Source of the DNA: a virus
Strand: one strand, 5' to 3'
Virus record (IMG/VR): IMGVR_UViG_3300017779_004709
Location: 1 to 64,000 of that record
DNA: 64,000 nucleotides
The position numbers and the translations under genes are program-made. The notes under the pieces are model-generated. The model was given only the letters and a program-made list of their open reading frames with translations, did not search any database and had not been told where the DNA came from. Positions 4,788 to 39,575 of this stretch are shown in pieces (position 1 is the stretch's first letter; the number at the start of each line of letters is the position of its first letter).

Positions 4788-4806
4788 AATAATCTCCCCC
4801 AAACCA

Positions 4807-4838
4807 ATCGTTTGGGAAAGTTATAAGATATTTATATT
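4807..4838 (+). promoter_or_regulatory. Putative phage (late) promoter ATCGTTTGGGA-N10-ATATTTATATT
   Basis: Upstream of the sheath gene; near-identical copy at 35913-35944. Confidence 0.6.
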
Positions 4839-4903
4839 AAATATTTAAATCCCTACATGGGATTAAAAGTTATTTAAATCATAACATTAATAGGAGAAAA
4901 TAA

Positions 4904-7339
4904 ATGGCAGAACGAATCGTAAGTCCGGGTGTATTTACGAGAGAACGTGATTTATCATTTCTACCTGCTGGAATTGCAGCTATTGGAGCGGCAATTGTAG
5001 GACCAACTGTAAAAGGTCCTGCTTTTGTACCAACAATAGTAAGTAATTTTAGTGAGTTTGAAGAAATGTTTGGATCTACGGACAAAAATATATACACGCC
5101 GTACGCAGTAGAACAATACCTAAGAAGTGCAGGAACCGTAACAATAGTTCGTGTTCTTAATACAGGTGGATATTCTGCTGATTTAGTACAAATTAACTTA
5201 ACGGGTAGTGTGGGTGCAGCATCAGAAGTTGGTGTAACAACTCAAACTATGGCCGTTGTAGCACCATCAAGAGGTGGTTCAGATGGAACTGTAAGATTAA
5301 ACGAAGTTTCAGTAACACAACCTGCGGTTGGTACTGGAGCTTATTCTAAATTTACTTTGACCGCAAGTGGAAGTAACTTTGGAGCAAAGAGTGTTACGGC
5401 ATTCTCAGCTACGGTTTCATTCAACACATCAAGTGCAGATTACATCGATGTAGCATTAAGTGGTGATCCACAAGTACAAAAATCAGGAACATCAACCGTA
5501 CCAATTTACTTGTATAAAAACTTCAAACATGCACAAAGTAATTTGACAAGTACATACACGACAGATTTAACAAATACAACTGCTTCGATTGTAAGTGCTT
5601 CATATAATGCAGTTGATTTTACATCAGCAGCTTATAACCACGCTTCAACACCTTTTATACAATCACAATTAGTTAATAAATCGAGATATAACTTATTTAA
5701 AGTTAATACTCGTTCACATGGTACAAATGTGAATAACAAATTCAAGATTGCTATACTAAGTGTTAAGAAGGCAGGTACAATAGCAGGTAGTGATTATGGT
5801 TCATTTTCATTACAAGTTAGACAGACTGGATTAGATGATAACAATTTGACTAAGGATAATGTCTTAGAACAATTTGATAATCTAAATTTAGATCCAACAA
5901 GTCCTAATTACTTTGCAAGAAGAATTGGTGATAGATATGTAACAATAGATGCTAATGGTAAACTCACTTACAATGGTGATTGGGATAATAGGTCAAGACA
6001 TATTTACCTATCAGATTTTGGTGATATTGCCGAAAACTCTATACCAAAATCTCTTGTTCCTATGGGACACGCAGCAATAACTAATCCTACACCTGGAGGA
6101 ACAGACATACCAGTATGGGCGTTCAATCAGAGTCAGTCTAATGCACAAGGTACTTTTGACCACAATATTTTATTTGGTCATGATTTTGGTAACGCAGATG
6201 CAAATCAGTATTTGTCACCATTACCAAATAACGCAGGAGCTGGTAGTCATGTGACTATGAGTCTTGAAGATATTAATGGTAGTGCAGATGCAAGTGTAAC
6301 AGGAACTACATTCTCAGATGGTACTGAAAAGATAACACTTATCTTATCTAACATCAAACAGAGAAAGTTTGTTGTTCCATTTCAAGGTGGATTTGACGGA
6401 GAGAATCCTGCTAATCCAAAGAAAACTGGAAGTGACATAGTAGCATCGAATACACAAGGGTTTGATATTTCAAGTGCAACAGCAGCTGGAGCAGTAGCTT
6501 ATAAGAAAGCTATTAACGCAATCAGTAATCCTGATGAATTTGATATCAATATGTTAGTAACACCTGGTGTTATCCACGATTTACATCCGAAGATTACAAA
6601 TCACGCAATCTCTAAATGTGAAGAACGTGGTGATGCATTCTATATCTTGGATAGTAGCATATATGGTGGTTCTATATCATCAGTAACAGCAGCTATACAA
6701 GCACTCGATACTAATTACGCAGCAACATATTATCCTTGGGTAAAGATTGTTGATAGAAACACAGCCTTACCAGTATGGGTCCCACCATCAGTAGTATTAC
6801 CTGGAGTAATCGCATTTACTGATAAAGTGGCACACGAATGGTTCGCACCAGCTGGTCTAAATCGTGGTGGTTTAACTACGGTATTAGAAGCACAAACTCG
6901 TTTGACACACGATGAACGAGATGAGTTGTATGAAGCAAGGGTTAATCCAATCGCTTCATTCCCAGGTCAAGGTGTATGTGTTTGGGGACAAAAAACCTTA
7001 CAAGGTCGTCCATCAGCACTCGATAGGGTTAATGTTCGTAGATTGTTGATTAGATTGAAGAAGTTTATCGCATCTTCTTCAAGATACTTAGTATTTGAAC
7101 AGAACACATCAGCAACGAGAAATCGTTTCTTAAATATTGTGAATCCGTTCTTAGAATCAGTACAAGCAAATAGTGGTCTATCCGCATTTAAGGTAGTTAT
7201 GGATGATACCAATAACACACCTGATGTGATTGATAGAAATCAACTTGTTGGTCAGATATTTATCCAACCTACAAGAACCGCTGAATTTATTGTATTGGAC
7301 TTCGTAGTATTACCAACAGGAGCTACATTCCCAGCGTAA
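4904..7339 (+). CDS. Contractile tail sheath protein (T4 gp18-like)
   Basis: N-terminal SPGVFTRERD; C-terminal YYPWV, WFAPAGLNRG, WGQKTLQ, RVNVRRLL, IQPTRTAEFI. Confidence 0.95.
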   Translation: MAERIVSPGVFTRERDLSFLPAGIAAIGAAIVGPTVKGPAFVPTIVSNFSEFEEMFGSTDKNIYTPYAVEQYLRSAGTVTIVRVLNTGGYSADLVQINLTGSVGAASEVGVTTQTMAVVAPSRGGSDGTVRLNEVSVTQPAVGTGAYSKFTLTASGSNFGAKSVTAFSATVSFNTSSADYIDVALSGDPQVQKSGTSTVPIYLYKNFKHAQSNLTSTYTTDLTNTTASIVSASYNAVDFTSAAYNHASTPFIQSQLVNKSRYNLFKVNTRSHGTNVNNKFKIAILSVKKAGTIAGSDYGSFSLQVRQTGLDDNNLTKDNVLEQFDNLNLDPTSPNYFARRIGDRYVTIDANGKLTYNGDWDNRSRHIYLSDFGDIAENSIPKSLVPMGHAAITNPTPGGTDIPVWAFNQSQSNAQGTFDHNILFGHDFGNADANQYLSPLPNNAGAGSHVTMSLEDINGSADASVTGTTFSDGTEKITLILSNIKQRKFVVPFQGGFDGENPANPKKTGSDIVASNTQGFDISSATAAGAVAYKKAINAISNPDEFDINMLVTPGVIHDLHPKITNHAISKCEERGDAFYILDSSIYGGSISSVTAAIQALDTNYAATYYPWVKIVDRNTALPVWVPPSVVLPGVIAFTDKVAHEWFAPAGLNRGGLTTVLEAQTRLTHDERDELYEARVNPIASFPGQGVCVWGQKTLQGRPSALDRVNVRRLLIRLKKFIASSSRYLVFEQNTSATRNRFLNIVNPFLESVQANSGLSAFKVVMDDTNNTPDVIDRNQLVGQIFIQPTRTAEFIVLDFVVLPTGATFPA

Positions 7340-34984: not shown

Positions 34985-35022
34985 GGGAAACTTATTTCTC
35001 TTATCGGTATAGGAGAAATAAA

Positions 35023-35508
35023 ATGGCAAAGAAACCAGCGTCGTTTGAGTATAACGGCACACTTGTTAAAGTTTTAGATGGAGATACAATCGATTGTTAT
35101 ATTGATTTGGGTTTCGATTTAAAAATTAAAAAAAGAATTAGATATATGGGTATTGATACTTGGGAAAGTAGAACTCGTGATTTAGATGAAAAGAAAAAAG
35201 GACTAGCAGCCAAAGCTCGTAACAAAGAGTTATTAGAGGCTGGTACTTTCAAGATAGTTTCACATGGAACTGGTAAGTTCGGTAGAGTATTGGGTGAGAT
35301 ATTTGTTTCACCAGATGCAGTAGGACACGAAGTATCAGAAAATGTTGATAAATCATCTGATGGATTGGTTAGTATTAATGATATACTGATCAATGAAGGA
35401 CACGCTTACGAGTACGATGGTGGTAAGAAAAAGAAATTTGTCGCTGAAATACAAACAGAAAAGGCAGCTAAGAAAGAAGATTTAGTTGATAAACCAGCAG
35501 AGGAATAA
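35023..35508 (+). CDS. Thermonuclease (SNase-like)
   Basis: VLDGDTID, RIRYMGIDTWES, GKFGRVLG, LINEGHA. Confidence 0.9.
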   Translation: MAKKPASFEYNGTLVKVLDGDTIDCYIDLGFDLKIKKRIRYMGIDTWESRTRDLDEKKKGLAAKARNKELLEAGTFKIVSHGTGKFGRVLGEIFVSPDAVGHEVSENVDKSSDGLVSINDILINEGHAYEYDGGKKKKFVAEIQTEKAAKKEDLVDKPAEE

Positions 35509-35509
35509 A

Positions 35510-35587
35510 ATGACATACGAAATAGTAGTAAGTTACTCTACTGAAAACACTACCCAGCTATACAAGTATTATTACTGGGAAGAATAA
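35510..35587 (+). CDS. 25-aa peptide (not in ORF track)
   Basis: MTYEIVVSYSTENTTQLYKYYYWEE; GAGG RBS; tightly packed with neighbours. Confidence 0.35.
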   Translation: MTYEIVVSYSTENTTQLYKYYYWEE

Positions 35588-35589
35588 AA

Positions 35590-35736
35590 ATGAATAAGTG
35601 GGATAGAGTAGAGAAGAAACCAAAAAGAATTAAGTATACCAAACAAGATGAACTTTTTGATTATCTAAAAATGGGATTAATTATTTTGGTGGGATATCTA
35701 TTCTTCCACTTTATAATAATGGGATGGACATTATGA
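35590..35736 (+). CDS. 48-aa membrane protein (not in ORF track)
   Basis: MNKWDRVEKK...MGLIILVGYLFFHFIIMGWTL. Confidence 0.5.
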   Translation: MNKWDRVEKKPKRIKYTKQDELFDYLKMGLIILVGYLFFHFIIMGWTL

Positions 35737-35900
35737 AATATAAGGTTATAAAAGACTATCCAACAGCAAATGGTATTCTTTATAAAGATGAGTTAGTTAA
35801 TGAAGCAGGTAACTCTACTTTAAAGGGGCATATCAGAGTTAAGGATAATATGGGCCGAATTTGGTTCGTACCGAAACAAACAATAAAAAAAATAAAATAG
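35733..35900 (+). CDS. 55-aa hypothetical protein (not in ORF track)
   Basis: ATGA overlap; MKYKVIKDYPTANGILYKDE...IRVKDNMGRIWFVPK. Confidence 0.55.
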   Translation: MKYKVIKDYPTANGILYKDELVNEAGNSTLKGHIRVKDNMGRIWFVPKQTIKKIK

Positions 35901-35912
35901 CATAAAAAACCT

Positions 35913-35944
35913 ATCGTTTGGGATTTTTTGTGTATATATATATT
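35913..35944 (+). promoter_or_regulatory. Putative phage promoter ATCGTTTGGGA-N10-ATATATATATT driving the ncRNA
   Basis: Near-identical to the sheath promoter at 4807-4838. Confidence 0.6.
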
Positions 35945-35945
35945 A

Positions 35946-36523
35946 TGTCTTTCGGGACAAAAGTTTTTTGACAAATTGAAAATGGAAAGTAGAGAGACTA
36001 ATTATCTCTCTATGGGATTGACCGAACAATGAGTGACTTCGAAGCTCATAAGGTAATCCGCTCTTAGACTCGTGGTGAGTTGGTATTCGGGTAAATGTTC
36101 AAAATACCTTGCGACAGCATTAAGAGAATGTACTTTCAGATAAAATTAAGAACGCGATTCTTAGACCTTGTTATGGGTAAGGGTAAAACCGAAATCCCAT
36201 CTTGTGACCGAATAAACTAAACTCAGAGAGTTAAGGTAATGGCACAGAGGTTGTACTCACTTTGACGATGACTAACCATCATTGAGGAGAACCAAAGTAA
36301 CTTTTGGGTGTTAGGTACAAGGTAAAAAAAATCTGAGTCTGAAAGTTGTAGGTATTCGCAAATCCTACATCCCCAAATTTTCATTTTTGGAAGGTATCTT
36401 TACAGATTGAAAAGATGAGAAGGGTGTTATTGTATTCCCTAACTTTCCATTTATTTAGGTGGTGAGGCTTTCTTACATATACCCGATAATTTTAATTATC
36501 TAAAACTCACCACCTTTTTTTTT
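35946..36523 (+). ncRNA. Large ornate structured non-coding RNA, family unassigned
   Basis: No ORF >=60 aa on the + strand; 11-bp closing helix 35980-90/36442-52; more than 12 internal helices; long-range 36132-40/36338-46; 5' UUCG hairpin; 3' terminator. Confidence 0.8.
36457..36523 (+). terminator. Terminator-like stem ending the ncRNA
   Basis: AGGTGGTGAG(36457-66)/CTCACCACCT(36506-15) followed by a T-run. Confidence 0.7.
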
Positions 36524-36536
36524 AGCAAAAAATTTG

Positions 36537-36570
36537 TGTTGTTTTTAAAACAAACCAATACTTATAGTTG
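36537..36570 (+). promoter_or_regulatory. Putative phage promoter TGTTGTTTTT-N11-ATACTTATAGTTG
   Basis: Matches the tube-gene motif at 7459. Confidence 0.55.
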
Positions 36571-36632
36571 TACAGAAAAATATGTACAATTACAAAATAA
36601 CAAATAAACATAAACAAATAAGGAGATAACAA

Positions 36633-37403
36633 ATGGATATTGAAGCCGTAAGAAAGCGACTAAACCAGTTACAAACCTCAACTACAAGAACAACAAACTT
36701 GTGGAAACCTCAACCAGGAAAGACACAAATCCGTCTTTTACCTTACAAACTAAATCAAGAAGTTCCTTTTATCGAACTATTCTTTCATTATGATTTAGGT
36801 GGAAAGTCTTATCTTTCACCAATCTCATTTGGTAGACCAGATCCGATTGAAGAATTTGCTGAAAAACTAAAGTCAAGTGGAAATCGTGAAGATTGGAGAC
36901 TTGGTAAGAAGTTAGAAGCAAAACTCAGAACTTTTGCACCAGTTTGTGTTCGTGGTGAAGAAAACCAAGGCTCTAAGTTTTGGGGATTTGGTAAAACCGT
37001 ATATCAAGAACTACTATCAATTATAGCAGATCCTGATTATGGTGATATTAGTGATCCAGTTAATGGACGCGATGTAGTGGTTGAATTCCTAACAGCTGAA
37101 GAAACAGGAGCGTCGTTTCTTAAGACTAACATCCGTGTTAAACCAAACCAAACACCAGTTACAGAAGATAAAGCAGTTTTATCTACATTACTTGATGACC
37201 AAAAAGATATCCGTGAGGTATATAATGAGTTAAGTTATGATGAACTTGCAGAAGCTTTACAAGATTGGTTAAACCCAAGTGAAGATGGTGAAGATAAAGG
37301 CTCAGACAATTCCGTACCAGCATCAACAACAAAGAAATTAGAAAGTGCAGTAACAAACACTTCTAATGTTAGTGATGCTTTTGATGACCTGTTTAATAAA
37401 TAG
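36633..37403 (+). CDS. Single-stranded DNA-binding protein (T4 gp32-like)
   Basis: LWKPQPGK..IRLLP, WGFGKTVY, DPVNGRD, acidic tail DAFDDLF. Confidence 0.85.
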   Translation: MDIEAVRKRLNQLQTSTTRTTNLWKPQPGKTQIRLLPYKLNQEVPFIELFFHYDLGGKSYLSPISFGRPDPIEEFAEKLKSSGNREDWRLGKKLEAKLRTFAPVCVRGEENQGSKFWGFGKTVYQELLSIIADPDYGDISDPVNGRDVVVEFLTAEETGASFLKTNIRVKPNQTPVTEDKAVLSTLLDDQKDIREVYNELSYDELAEALQDWLNPSEDGEDKGSDNSVPASTTKKLESAVTNTSNVSDAFDDLFNK

Positions 37404-37417
37404 AAAAGGAGACATAT

Positions 37418-38524
37418 ATGTCTATATCAGCAAAAGATGAACTTGCACAAGTTCTTGCCGATAACCTTAATAAGCAGTTCAAGGATACGAAAGTAGCCTA
37501 TTTCTTAGATGGTTCAAATGCTACACCAACAGATGTAAAGGAATTTATATCAACTGGTTCATCAATTTTAGATCTAGCAATCTCCAATCGTCCTAATGGT
37601 GGAATAGCCGTAGGACGAATTACGGAGATAAATGGTTTAGAATCAAGTGGTAAATCTCTAATAGGAACTCACATTCTTTCAGAAACTCAGAAGAAAGGTG
37701 GTATAGCAGTTTATATCGATACCGAAACTTCTGTTAGTAGAGAATGGTTAGAAACTATTGGTGTTAATGTTCAAGACTTGTTATATCTTCATGTCGAAAC
37801 CGTAGAAGATATATTTCAATGTATTGAAAACATTGTTACCAAGATTAGGGAATCAGATAGAGATAGGTTAGTTACAATCCTCGTGGATAGTTTAGCAGGG
37901 GCATCGACCAAAGTAGAGATGGAAGCCGATTTCGAGAAAGATGGATGGGCAACAAGTAAAGCAATTATCGTTTCTAAAGCGATGAGGAAGGTTACACAAA
38001 TGATTGGTAGAGAAAGAATAGCTCTTGTCTTTACTAATCAACTCAGACAGAAACTCGGAGTAATGTTCGGTGATCCTTGGACAACAAGTGGTGGTAAGGC
38101 ATTACCATTTCACTCATCAACTCGTATTCGTTTAAAGAATATGGGACAAATCAAAGATACAGCAAAAAATGTATTGGGTATGAAAACTCGATGTCAGATT
38201 ATCAAGAATCGTTTAGGCCCACCATTACGACATGCCGATTTCAATTTATACTTCGATAGTGGTATAGATGATATGGGAAGTTGGTTAACGGTCCTGAAAG
38301 AACACAAACTCTTGAAAGTTGCTGGAGCTTGGTACACTTTAGAATATAAAGGTAAGGATATCAAATTTCAATCTAAAGACTTTGATAAGAAGTTGAAAGA
38401 AACTGATGGACTACAAGAACACCTTTATGATTTAATCTGTGAAGCATCCATACTGAAATACCAATCAAAAGATTTAGGTATTGATGATGTGGTTTACACA
38501 GATGAAGTGATTGGTGATGAATAA
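37418..38524 (+). CDS. recA: RecA/UvsX recombinase
   Basis: ISTGS..LD, GRITEINGLESSGKS, YIDTE, VDSLA, FTNQLR, TSGGKAL.FHSS.R. Confidence 0.92.
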   Translation: MSISAKDELAQVLADNLNKQFKDTKVAYFLDGSNATPTDVKEFISTGSSILDLAISNRPNGGIAVGRITEINGLESSGKSLIGTHILSETQKKGGIAVYIDTETSVSREWLETIGVNVQDLLYLHVETVEDIFQCIENIVTKIRESDRDRLVTILVDSLAGASTKVEMEADFEKDGWATSKAIIVSKAMRKVTQMIGRERIALVFTNQLRQKLGVMFGDPWTTSGGKALPFHSSTRIRLKNMGQIKDTAKNVLGMKTRCQIIKNRLGPPLRHADFNLYFDSGIDDMGSWLTVLKEHKLLKVAGAWYTLEYKGKDIKFQSKDFDKKLKETDGLQEHLYDLICEASILKYQSKDLGIDDVVYTDEVIGDE

Positions 38525-39575
38525 TGGCAAATACCTTTCTATTCTTGACGAAATAAAGAAGCACGGCGGTGAAACTAACACATCAAATCCCAATGAAAAA
38601 GTACTGATAATAGATGGCTTAAATACCTTTATTAGAGTATTCTCAGTTATACCAACTACTAATGATGATGGAATTCACATTGGTGGAATAGTTGGTTTTC
38701 TTAAATCAGTTGGTTACGCAATTAAGATGTTAGCTCCTACCCGCACTATCATTACTTTTGATGGTAAAGGTGGGAGTAACCGCCGCCGTAAACTTTATCC
38801 TGAATATAAAGCGAAACGAAGAACAGGCAAAATTAGACTCAATCGTGTAAACGATTTTGAAAATATCGAAGATGAACGACACTCAATGATGATGCAATTA
38901 TCTCGTTGTGTGGAATACTTAGAGAAGTTACCTGTAAGTATAATGTCTATTGATGGTATTGAGGCAGATGACGCTATAGGATATGTATCAAAGCAAATAT
39001 TACCAAATAGTAATGTTGTTATCATGTCCACCGATAAAGATTTCTTACAATTAGTAAATGACAGAATTTCAGTTTGGTCACCTACTAAGAAGAAGTTGTA
39101 TAATCCTGAAATGGTATTAGAGGAATATAATGTAACATCAGAAAATCTATTATTGAGTAGAGTTTTTGAAGGTGATACTTCCGATAATATAAAAGGGGTA
39201 AAAGGTATTGGTGCTAAAACCTTACTAAAACACTTTCCTGATTTAGGCACAGAAGGAAAGGTTATGTCGTATGATGATGTAATCAAAGAGGCACAGAAAC
39301 ATCAAGGAGAGAGATTTTACAATCTAATACTTGATAACCAAGACACCATAGATATTAATCACAGATTGATGCAATTATCAGATGTGGATATTAGTGGTGG
39401 TGCTAAATTAAAGATTAACCGAATAGTAAATGGTAAGATACCTGAACTGAATAAAGTAATCTTTCAGAAGATGTTTATTGAGGATAGAATGTTTGGTGCC
39501 TTACCAAATATGGATAGTTGGATAATGCAAACTTGGACTCAACTCAATAGGTTTGCTAAAATAAACAATGGGTAG
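38511..39575 (+). CDS. 5'-3' exonuclease / RNase H (FEN family)
   Basis: LIIDGLN, YPEYKAKR, EADD, STDKDFLQL, GDTSDNIKGVKGIGAKT. Confidence 0.92.
   Translation: MVMNNGKYLSILDEIKKHGGETNTSNPNEKVLIIDGLNTFIRVFSVIPTTNDDGIHIGGIVGFLKSVGYAIKMLAPTRTIITFDGKGGSNRRRKLYPEYKAKRRTGKIRLNRVNDFENIEDERHSMMMQLSRCVEYLEKLPVSIMSIDGIEADDAIGYVSKQILPNSNVVIMSTDKDFLQLVNDRISVWSPTKKKLYNPEMVLEEYNVTSENLLLSRVFEGDTSDNIKGVKGIGAKTLLKHFPDLGTEGKVMSYDDVIKEAQKHQGERFYNLILDNQDTIDINHRLMQLSDVDISGGAKLKINRIVNGKIPELNKVIFQKMFIEDRMFGALPNMDSWIMQTWTQLNRFAKINNG

What the first reader, a model, noticed from the sequence alone, without database searches (positions are those of the whole stretch)
35913..36523. Stand-alone ~580-nt ornate non-coding RNA with its own promoter and terminator
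Seen in sequence: this is the longest ORF-free stretch in a gene-dense window and is richer in GC than its flanks. It starts right after a promoter motif nearly identical to the tail-sheath promoter (ATCGTTTGGGA-N10-ATAT.TATATT) and opens with a TGTCT-UUCG-GGACA hairpin. A perfect 11-bp helix AAATGGAAAGT(35980-90)/ACTTTCCATTT(36442-52) closes a ~470-nt domain. Nested helices include AGAGAGA/TCTCTCT, GGATT.ACC/GGT.AATCC with ATGAG/CTCAT, CTCTTA(36061)/TAAGAG(36121), GGTATT/AATACC, ACTTTCAGA(36132-40)/TCTGAAAGT(36338-46), ACCTTGT(36165-71)/ACAAGGT(36317-23), TAAGAA/TTCTTA, ATGGG/CCCAT, TGTAGG/CCTACA, ATCTTT/AAAGAT and AGGG/CCCT. Possible pseudoknots are ACTCAGA(36221-27)/TCTGAGT(36332-38) and CTAAC/GTTAG. 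It ends in a 10-bp stem plus U-run, and the SSB gene then has its own promoter. Established: ROOL, GOLLD and OLE are large ornate bacterial/phage RNAs, and ROOL is of similar length. Inference: this is a strongly transcribed phage RNA gene, either a distant member of those classes or a new class. It lacks tmRNA, RNase P and intron hallmarks.
Basis: partly seen in the sequence, partly recalled or inferred. Interest (0 to 1): 0.9.

Follow-up and report, generated by a model that had tools for sequence, protein, structure and literature searches.

The report
Nested double manA phage RNA
The gene-free stretch upstream of this marine phage's single-strand DNA-binding protein gene is a real, strongly conserved folded RNA gene. 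It is not a new class but an enlarged form of the known manA RNA, with a second manA-like core inserted into the first, and its loop-to-loop contacts are kept by evolution.

Summary
The observation largely holds. 35975-36632 is the longest ORF-free gap in the window, and the RNA strand is +.

Rfam's manA model (RF01745) hits 36172-36373 at 67.7 bits, above its cut-off of 55.2. ROOL, GOLLD, OLE, tmRNA and intron models do not hit.

I collected 97 distinct homologues (63-87% identical) from marine viral contigs. In 91 of 96, gp32 follows on the same strand.

Covariation supports a ~407-nt fold (35977-36383). It is a complete outer manA whose long hairpin carries an inserted partial inner manA core (36165-36323). 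It also has a covarying pseudoknot (36222-27 with 36332-37) and a covarying loop-loop pair (36154-57 with 36356-59).

Its 3' strand belongs to an optional 62-nt module.

The RNA has its own promoter-like motif, shared with the tail-sheath gene, and its own terminator. gp32 keeps its own upstream region in relatives that lack the RNA.

Verdict: a stand-alone RNA gene and a new variant of a known kind. The scan found the same family before on other genomes (e1-5771618, e1-5833224).

Its biological role is unknown. The leading idea, self-assembly as reported for manA in vitro, is inferred.

The parts
35913..35945 (+). Promoter-like motif: ATCGTTTGGGA, a spacer, then a TATATATAT box
   Evidence: One search finds one strict match. 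One search finds a second copy at 4810-4837, before the tail-sheath gene. TTTG[GA]GA followed by a TATATA box (regex as searched) is present upstream of 53 of 95 homologues. Promoter activity is inferred.
35946..35959 (+). 5' hairpin UGUCU-UUCG-GGACA, at the presumed transcript start
   Evidence: Fold. Homologues have a hairpin of different sequence at the same place. The transcription start is inferred.
35963..35974 (+). Nearly invariant single-stranded leader GUUUUUUGACAA
   Evidence: Invariant and near-invariant columns of A1. It is also present in the distant relative L021. No partner was found.
35977..36383 (+). Conserved two-core manA-type RNA, closed by P0 (35977-83 with 36377-83)
   Evidence: 120 pairs, 91.9% paired, 74 pairs with changes on both sides, covariation score 0.425 against about 0.09 for slid controls. 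RNAalifold recovers 81 of 106 nested pairs. P0 itself is 73% paired, with 5 of 7 pairs compensated.
35991..36131 (+). Outer manA module, 5' part: P1 35991-97/36005-11; P2 5' strand GGGAU 36014-18; P3 36029-34/36044-49; junction stem P4 36061-67/36120-26 with hairpins P5 (loop GUGGUG 36072-77), P6 and P7 (loop GACA)
   Evidence: Given alone to Rfam, it hits only manA (16 bits, E = 0.025, cut off at the 3' end). The homologue L051 gives a separate second manA hit on this part (26 bits, E = 0.006). Helix covariation.
36132..36346 (+). Outer long hairpin P8 (36132-40 with 36338-46), which encloses hairpin Hx/L8 and the inner core
   Evidence: 99% paired, 6 of 9 pairs compensated (helix 12).
36147..36163 (+). 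Hx, the apical hairpin of P8; its loop (36154-57, GCGA) pairs with the P9 loop
   Evidence: 4 loop-loop pairs, 100% paired in 343 cells, 3 pairs covary (AU/GC 56:31, CG/UA 62:25, GC/AU 81:6).
36165..36323 (+). Inner partial manA core: closing stem 36165-71/36317-23; P1i 36173-77/36196-200; AC/GU pairs 36207-08/36236-37; junction stem 36240-45/36308-13 with three hairpins (loops GUUGUA, CUAACCA, UAAC)
   Evidence: Positions 1 to about 135 of the Rfam manA model align here. All its helices are 93-100% paired with compensatory changes (helices 14-16, 18, 19, 21, 22).
36332..36337 (+). 3' strand of pseudoknot PK1 (UCUGAG), which pairs with CUCAGA at 36222-27 in the inner core
   Evidence: helix 17: 100% paired, with 40 and 50 sequences changed on both sides. 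The competing local hairpin ACUC/GAGU gets no support.
36348..36373 (+). Outer P9 hairpin (36348-52/36364-68; loop holds UCGC 36356-59) followed by the P2 3' strand AUCCC 36369-73
   Evidence: P9 is 100% paired, with 37 and 38 compensations. P2 is 100% paired, and G16-C71 changes to A-U in 14 sequences (helices 23 and 3).
36388..36449 (+). Optional 62-nt module ('ext'): outer stem 36388-95/36442-49 with two inner hairpins
   Evidence: Fold. Present in 8 of the unique homologues compared (L016, L018, L121, L135, L167, L198, L201 and the window) and absent from close relatives L002 and L007. It stands alone between the same kind of promoter and terminator in L006.
36457..36523 (+). Intrinsic-terminator-like hairpin (10-bp stem, 39-nt structured loop) followed by U9
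   Evidence: z = -4.5. The same hairpin is found in 15 loci. Other subgroups have a different, covarying stem plus a U-run. Termination is inferred.
36524..36632 (+). gp32's own upstream region: AT-rich box, hairpin 36565-92, A-rich leader and Shine-Dalgarno sequence
   Evidence: Kept next to gp32 in relatives that lack the RNA (L003-L006, L009-L013). Fold.
36633..37403 (+). gp32-type single-strand DNA-binding protein gene
   Evidence: Pfam PF08804, E = 3.8e-11. It lies downstream on the same strand in 91 of 96 homologous loci.

Best explanation
This is a stand-alone non-coding RNA gene of an uncultured marine myophage. The transcript is probably about 578 nt (35946-36523); its ends are inferred.

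Its conserved core (35977-36383) is a two-core member of the manA RNA family. A complete outer manA is present, with P1-P9 numbered by analogy. Its long hairpin P8 has become a three-way junction that carries an inserted, partial inner manA core.

The two cores are locked together by a pseudoknot between the inner core's P3 region and the interior of outer P8. They are probably also joined by pairing of the outer GUGGUG loop with the inner AACCA loop. The loops of outer P8 and P9 also pair.

Shown here: the homology to manA, the nested topology, the pseudoknot and the P8-P9 loop pairing, all from covariation.

Inferred:
- that it is transcribed on its own from a late-type phage promoter;
- that it acts as a rigid folded particle which, like the short manA RNAs reported to form 10-mers and 60-mer cages in vitro, uses its loop contacts to join copies of itself.

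My odds: manA-type two-core RNA 0.9; independent gene rather than gp32 leader 0.75; self-assembly as its mode of action 0.35.
For: - Rfam manA scores 67.7 bits against a cut-off of 55.2. It is above the cut-off in 10 homologues and just below it in others.
- The outer 5' half alone hits only manA, and L051 gives two manA hits.
- There are 97 distinct homologues. The structure is 91.9% paired, with 74 compensated pairs and 1544 compensated cells against 488 in shuffles. RNAalifold agrees on 81 of 106 pairs.
- Many invariant G-U pairs fix the + strand as the RNA strand.
- The nesting is proven by outer helices that span the inner core: P2 (14 compensations) and P8.
- PK1 and the L8-L9 loop pair never mismatch and both covary.
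- The Rfam consensus itself has complementary L8 (aCUgu) and L9 (acAgu) loops, and complementary L5 (GUGGUG) and L7 (ACCA) loops. The 2026 preprint reports L5-L7', L8-L9' and L3-L8' as intermolecular kissing contacts of manA assemblies.
- Evidence for independence from gp32: a terminator; gp32's upstream region is retained in RNA-less relatives, and the RNA cassette is variable, with the core alone, core plus ext, ext alone, or an empty promoter-terminator unit.
- Canonical manA in cyanophage S-SSM7 abuts a tRNA gene, and L021 has a tRNA just upstream.
- Exact-match contigs occur in marine RNA libraries of four studies. This is only a weak hint.
Against: - No raw reads were available, so the transcript ends, the strand and the level are not shown.
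- Two RNA-library contigs run across the terminator (X2 36208-36571, X5 36149-36604). Read-through into gp32 is therefore not excluded.
- The strict synteny with gp32 (91 of 96) would also fit a cis role.
- Covariation cannot tell whether the loop pairs form within one molecule or between molecules.
- The mapping of my loops onto the preprint's L numbers is inferred from the Rfam consensus. For example, its GNRA loop is taken as L6. The figures are not held.
- The outer-loop to inner-loop pair (GUGGU/ACCA) is nearly invariant. Only one clade changes both loops together.
- The full manA hit here is chimeric: inner core plus outer P9.
Confidence: 0.7

Rival explanations
1. The RNA is a monomeric, tertiary-locked particle. 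All the covarying loop contacts (PK1, L8-L9, GUGGU/ACCA) form within one molecule. It acts by binding a small ligand or a protein, for instance as a decoy or sensor, and not by self-assembly.
For: PK1 must be intramolecular in topology, because it links two parts of one chain that always co-occur. Fusing two cores could satisfy in cis the contacts that short manA RNAs make in trans. manA was first proposed as a riboswitch candidate.
Against: The outer module keeps the same L8-L9 complementarity as the canonical consensus, and the preprint reports that contact as intermolecular. The apical loop of outer P1 is a 6-nt palindrome (UAAUUA or UUAUAA) in about 77 of 97 sequences. This would suit self-pairing, but it is weak evidence in an AT-rich genome.
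Confidence: 0.3
2. The RNA is a cis-acting leader or riboswitch of the gp32 gene. Its fold controls read-through of the terminator at 36457-36523 and so controls gp32 expression.
For: gp32 lies directly downstream on the same strand in 91 of 96 loci. Rfam and Weinberg 2010 file manA as cis-regulatory. Two RNA-library contigs cross the terminator.
Against: gp32 keeps its own roughly 110-nt upstream region, with an AT-rich box, hairpin and leader, in relatives without the RNA. No conserved alternative pairing links the core to the terminator. The terminator stems differ between subgroups and are separated from the core by optional modules. The same promoter and terminator enclose an unrelated small module in L006 and nothing in L004. 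Canonical manA in S-SSM7 precedes a tRNA, not an mRNA.
Confidence: 0.12
3. The RNA belongs to a new class of large ornate RNA, or is a distant ROOL/GOLLD/OLE relative, and the manA match is coincidental.
For: Its size (about 410-580 nt) and its phage origin resemble ROOL and GOLLD. The full-length manA alignment is chimeric and lacks the model's closing stem.
Against: No ROOL, GOLLD or OLE hit appears even at E <= 10. Both halves match manA independently. Every manA helix and signature motif has a counterpart in the outer module.
Confidence: 0.03

Closest known systems
manA RNA motif (Rfam RF01745; Weinberg et al. 2010, PMC2864571)
   Same: The RNA scores above the gathering cut-off. The outer module has all nine helices in the same order. 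It carries the signature sequences GGGAU/AUCCC (closing stem), UGACYGAAYAA, UAAGGUAAU, the GUGGUG loop and GGUA...AAUCC (P9), and it has complementary L8 and L9 loops. It occurs in marine phages and lies upstream of a gene on the same strand.
   Different: It is about 407 nt instead of about 190 nt. A second, partial manA core (P1, P3 and the junction with three hairpins; no P2, P8 or P9) is inserted into P8. A new pseudoknot ties the inner core to P8. The outer P7 loop is GACA, and the ACCA loop sits in the inner core. It has its own promoter-like motif and terminator. It is found in non-cyanophage-like AT-rich myophages, next to gp32.
Cage- and decamer-forming manA RNAs (bioRxiv 10.64898/2026.07.01.735769)
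   Same: The core family is the same. The loop pairs that the preprint names as assembly contacts (L5-L7', L8-L9', L3-L8') have sequence counterparts here, and two of them covary.
   Different: Those RNAs are under 200 nt, have a single core, and were studied only in vitro. Here two cores are in one chain, so some contacts may be made in cis. No assembly data exist for this RNA.
ROOL, GOLLD and OLE (large ornate RNAs)
   Same: They are large, intricately folded non-coding RNAs, and ROOL and GOLLD are often found in phages. Recent work reports multimeric assemblies for such RNAs; this last point is from my own knowledge.
   Different: There is no sequence or structure match to their Rfam models. 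The fold here is built from manA modules.
Promoter/stem-loop cassettes (PeSL) of T4-type phages (Arbiol et al. 2010; recalled from memory, not checked)
   Same: Short modules bracketed by a repeated promoter plus hairpin and by a terminator hairpin are swapped between close relatives.
   Different: Here the cargo is RNA modules, not small ORFs. Recombination at these repeats was not tested.

Membership tests
manA RNA (RF01745) | Covariance-model score at or above the gathering cut-off (55.2 bits) | tested here: met
   67.7 bits at 36172-36373, and 59-73 bits in 10 homologues. Caveat: the alignment joins the inner core to the outer P9.
manA RNA (RF01745) | 5' hairpin P1, then a closing stem (GGGaG...CuCCC) that encloses P3, the junction, P8 and P9 | tested here: met
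   The outer module has P1 at 35991-36011 and GGGAU 36014-18 paired with AUCCC 36369-73. This stem is 100% paired, with 14 G-C to A-U compensations.
manA RNA (RF01745) | Junction stem with three hairpins, the first bearing a GUGGUG loop and the third an ACCA loop | tested here: inconclusive
   Both cores have the junction with three covarying hairpins. The outer core has GUGGUG, but its third loop is GACA. ACCA sits in the second hairpin of the inner core, and the inner first loop is GUUGUA.
manA RNA (RF01745) | Long hairpin P8 and hairpin P9 with complementary loops | tested here: met
   P8 (36132-40/36338-46) and P9 covary. The Hx loop pairs with the P9 loop in 100% of cells, and 3 of 4 pairs covary. 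The consensus loops aCUgu and acAgu are complementary.
manA RNA (RF01745) | Single core of about 190 nt | tested here: not met
   There are two cores in about 407 nt. The outer 5' half hits manA separately.
manA RNA as a cis-regulatory element or riboswitch | Lies in the 5' UTR of the regulated gene, with an expression platform coupled to the fold | tested here: not met
   A terminator, then a separate upstream region for gp32 that is retained in RNA-less relatives. No conserved alternative pairing with the terminator was found. Ligand binding cannot be tested here.
manA assemblies (2026 preprint) | Forms pentamer-based closed oligomers through kissing loops | not testable with these tools
   Only sequence complementarity and covariation of the loops can be shown.
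ROOL / GOLLD / OLE | Match to the family covariance model | tested here: not met
   In the permissive scan of 35700-36800 at E <= 10, only manA, DUF2693, fstAT and snoR64 are listed. The last three are far below their cut-offs.
tRNA / tmRNA | ARAGORN detection | tested here: not met
   0 genes in 35000-37000.

The most novel reading that the evidence does not exclude
The covarying loop pairs (outer L8-L9, and GUGGU/ACCA between the cores) are contacts between molecules in infected cells. On this reading the two-core RNA is a natural covalent 'dimer' building block of an RNA-only shell or lattice, made late in infection. Its covariation would be the first evolutionary evidence that the quaternary contacts seen for manA in vitro are under selection in nature.
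Probability: 0.3. Interest if true: 0.8.

Novelty: new variant of a known kind. Interest (0 to 1): 0.6.

Why it matters
manA has been an orphan "riboswitch candidate" since 2010. A 2026 preprint shows that short manA RNAs build 10-mers and a 60-mer cage in vitro, but it does not show whether this matters in nature.

This abundant marine-phage family (at least 120 viral contigs) adds three things:
- manA cores can be nested into one chain of about 410 nt.
- It behaves as a gene of its own, not as a leader.
- The loop-loop contacts named as assembly interfaces are preserved by compensatory change.

This gives a concrete, testable construct and concrete mutant pairs for asking whether manA-type RNAs assemble, and in cis or in trans. 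It also warns that Rfam-based annotation reports only a chimeric 200-nt "manA" inside a much larger RNA.

Tried and rejected
- blastn of the region against 50,697 deposited phage genomes found no match. The nearest cultured gp32 relative, Microcystis phage Mel-JY01, has only a 116-nt spacer and no RNA.
- Sequence-only profile comparison (nhmmer) of the inner core against the outer 5' module was not significant (E about 1), although the register was as expected. The covariance-model tests were needed.
- A per-sequence search for the P0 helix did not beat a shuffled-partner control (8.0 against 7.4 bp), because the segments are A/U-rich. P0 rests on the column-wise covariation only.
- Laying RNA-library contigs gave no ends, strand or reliable levels. 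The higher contig depth over the RNA in one run (85 against 13-16) and the parts without cover are not used as evidence.
- A genome-collection scan gave three MAG contigs. Only the one binned as Pelagibacter carries the RNA with gp32. Binning of a phage contig is not host evidence.
- Rejected helices: 35980-90/36442-52 as the closing stem; GGAUU/AAUCC; the ACUC/GAGU hairpin; the CUAAC/GUUAG pseudoknot.
- The strict promoter pattern matched only once and a looser one twice, so a genome-wide promoter class is not established.
- The sigma-70 and terminator consensus scan was uninformative. It misses terminators with large loops.

Full report
**What is in the sequence.** The window comes from a 91-kb viral contig. 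It is an AT-rich myophage. The tail sheath gene is at 4904-7339. gp32-type SSB is at 36633-37403, RecA at 37418-38524 and a 5'-3' exonuclease at 38511-39575.

The flagged stretch lies in the longest ORF-free gap of the window, 35975-36632. Its GC content is modestly higher than that of its flanks. The short ORFs inside it are open in only 1-2 of 97 homologues. ARAGORN finds no tRNA or tmRNA. Both strands fold better than shuffles, with z about -3.3. Many invariant G-U pairs in the comparative structure fix the + strand as the RNA strand.

**Known family.** Rfam's manA model (RF01745) hits 36172-36373 at 67.7 bits against a cut-off of 55.2. A permissive scan of 35700-36800 shows nothing else of note. 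There is no ROOL, GOLLD, OLE, RNase P or intron hit.

manA was described in 2010 as a riboswitch candidate from marine metagenomes and T4-like cyanophages (PMC2864571). A 2026 preprint reports that manA RNAs under 200 nt form decamers and a 60-subunit cage in vitro. These assemblies are held by the kissing loops L5-L7', L8-L9' and L3-L8' (10.64898/2026.07.01.735769).

**Relatives.**
- Among the best 80 loci encoding gp32 relatives, about 20 carry the RNA upstream of gp32. Most of the rest have only a spacer of about 100 nt. That group includes relatives with 93-94% identical gp32.
- After removing duplicates I had 97 full-length sequences, 63-87% identical to the window over the core. They were aligned with MAFFT as A1.
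- gp32 follows on the same strand in 91 of 96 of these, mostly 160-260 nt after the core.
- More distant relatives (L019, L021, L028) carry the same two-core RNA at sub-threshold manA scores. In L021 it follows a tRNA.

**Structure.** I wrote a structure from the window sequence and the manA consensus, then counted it on A1.
- Of 120 pairs, 91.9% of cells are paired and 74 pairs show changes on both sides.
- 1544 cells are compensated, against 488 in shuffles.
- The covariation score is 0.425, against about 0.09 when the partners are slid by 1-3 columns.
- RNAalifold run independently recovers 81 of the 106 nested pairs, including all the long-range stems except P0.

**Outer module.** The picture is a complete outer manA.
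- P1 is 35991-97/36005-11.
- The closing stem is GGGAU 36014-18 with AUCCC 36369-73. It is never mismatched, and G-C becomes A-U in 14 sequences.
- P3 is 36029-34/36044-49.
- The junction stem is 36061-67/36120-26. It carries a GUGGUG hairpin, a variable hairpin and a GACA hairpin.
- The long hairpin P8 is 36132-40/36338-46.
- P9 is 36348-52/36364-68.

**Inner core.** P8 is opened into a three-way junction. That junction holds its own apical hairpin Hx (36147-63) and an inserted partial manA core (36165-36323). The insert has a closing stem, P1, the AC/GU pairs of P3, and a junction with three hairpins.

The Rfam hit is therefore chimeric. Model positions 1 to about 135 align to the inner core, and positions from about 150 to the 3' end of the model align to outer P9.

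Two independent checks support a second core. The outer 5' half given alone hits manA and nothing else (E = 0.025). In homologue L051 the model gives two separate hits (54.6 and 26 bits).

**Tertiary contacts.**
- CUCAGA 36222-27, in the inner P3 region, pairs with UCUGAG 36332-37 inside outer P8. This pseudoknot is 100% paired, with 40 and 50 sequences changed on both sides. The competing local hairpin gets no support.
- The Hx loop (36154-57) pairs with the P9 loop (36356-59). All 343 cells are paired and three of four pairs covary: GCGA/UCGC, ACGA/UCGU and AUGA/UCAU. Distant relatives keep complementarity with other sequences (AGCC/GGCU).
- The Rfam consensus has the same loop complementarity (aCUgu with acAgu). 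It also has GUGGUG with ACCA, as does canonical manA of cyanophage S-SSM7.
- Here the outer GUGGUG loop is complementary to the AACCA loop of the inner core. This pair is nearly invariant, and one clade changes both loops together.
- I infer that my loops correspond to the preprint's L8-L9', L5-L7' and L3-L8' contacts. The inference rests on the nine-helix order and on the consensus GNRA loop being L6. The figures are not held.

The perfect 11-bp helix 35980-90/36442-52 is not conserved. Its 3' strand belongs to a 62-nt module (36388-36449) that folds on itself. That module is present in only part of the family and absent from the closest relatives L002 and L007. In L006 it stands alone between the same kind of promoter and terminator.

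The conserved closing helix is 35977-83/36377-83, which has moderate support. GGAUU/AAUCC and CUAAC/GUUAG are not supported.

**Gene or leader?**
- The RNA is preceded by ATCGTTTGGGA-N-TATATATAT and then a 5' hairpin. The same layout precedes the tail-sheath gene. This suggests a late-type phage promoter, which is an inference.
- The RNA ends in a strong hairpin followed by U9.
- gp32 then has its own AT-rich box, hairpin and A-rich leader. These are retained in relatives without the RNA.
- The cassette is modular. Relatives have the core alone, the core plus ext, the core plus another module, ext alone, or an empty promoter-terminator unit.
- Canonical manA in S-SSM7 abuts tRNA-Gly.
- Together these observations favour a stand-alone RNA gene. 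The constant position before gp32 and two RNA-library contigs that cross the terminator keep a cis role alive at low odds.
- Exact-match contigs occur in marine RNA libraries from several studies. Contigs cannot show ends, strand or level.

**How it probably works.** Shown: a rigid two-core fold whose parts are tied together by covarying tertiary pairs.

Inferred: like the short manA RNAs, it uses loop-loop contacts to build a defined particle. Some contacts may be made in cis because two cores are fused. Others, such as L8-L9 and perhaps the palindromic P1 loop, may still join copies. Its biological role is unknown.

**Earlier notes of this scan.** After I had reached the nested reading (note), look-ups showed that the same family had been read the same way on other genomes. 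These are e1-5771618 (a second core inserted into the first) and e1-5833224 (a fused double manA). Many other enlarged manA-like RNAs had also been noted. What I add for this window:
- formal covariation for the nesting, for PK1 and for the L8-L9 loop pair;
- the separate Rfam hits on the outer half;
- the rejection of the 11-bp helix;
- the modular cassette.

**Verdict.** This is a real feature and a new two-core variant of a known RNA family.

Noticed in passing
window 36388-36449; L006:270-345; L003:1250-1335; L004:1985-2080: The transcription unit is modular. A 62-nt two-hairpin module follows the manA core here. It stands alone between a similar promoter and the same terminator hairpin in L006. 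L003 carries a different insert of about 85 nt. L004 has the promoter running straight into the terminator hairpin. None of these modules matches an Rfam family.
   Followed up: partly
L077, L050, L058, L051 (about 60-130 nt after the core); L021:2215-2280: In most subgroups the terminator-like hairpin has a covarying stem (GGTTC/GAACC, ATGGTC/GACCAT, GCCCC/GGGGC). It has a large loop with conserved sequence (CGATTTTTAGTTTCCAC ... AAACTTAAAAA). That is unusual for a plain terminator.
   Followed up: no
window 35963-35974: The leader GUUUUUUGACAA is nearly invariant across 97 homologues and in distant relatives, yet has no covarying partner. An A-run at 36324-36331 could pair or form a triplex with it, but both are invariant.
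   Followed up: no
window 4806-4864: The tail-sheath gene is preceded by the same ATCGTTTGGGA...TATAT motif and a 5' hairpin (AATCCC-TACAT-GGGATT). gp32 also starts with a hairpin (36565-36592). Transcripts of this phage may generally begin with a stabilising stem-loop.
   Followed up: partly
window 36565-36632: The gp32 leader is a hairpin followed by a long unstructured A-rich tract before the Shine-Dalgarno sequence. This recalls the autoregulated gene 32 leader of phage T4 (from memory, not tested).
   Followed up: no
L210:1064-1335 (S-SSM7 GU071098.1 151363-151634): The canonical manA RNA of cyanophage S-SSM7 (123.6 bits) abuts tRNA-Gly directly. It overlaps the annotated hypothetical ORF SSSM7_180, which is probably not a real gene.
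   Followed up: partly
L004:2106-2327; L003 about 1425-1640: Close relatives that lack the manA core carry a small ORF (73 aa in L004, no Pfam match) between the terminator hairpin and the gp32 promoter. The window has no such ORF.
   Followed up: no
L021:1496-1567 and L022:1165-1236: In more distant relatives a tRNA gene sits just upstream of the two-core RNA, in the same slot before gp32.
   Followed up: no
L205 (NHJA01000041.1, 16 kb): A contig binned into a 'Candidatus Pelagibacter' MAG carries the RNA and gp32 (69% and 74% identity). It is probably a phage contig binned by composition and gives at most a faint host hint.
   Followed up: partly
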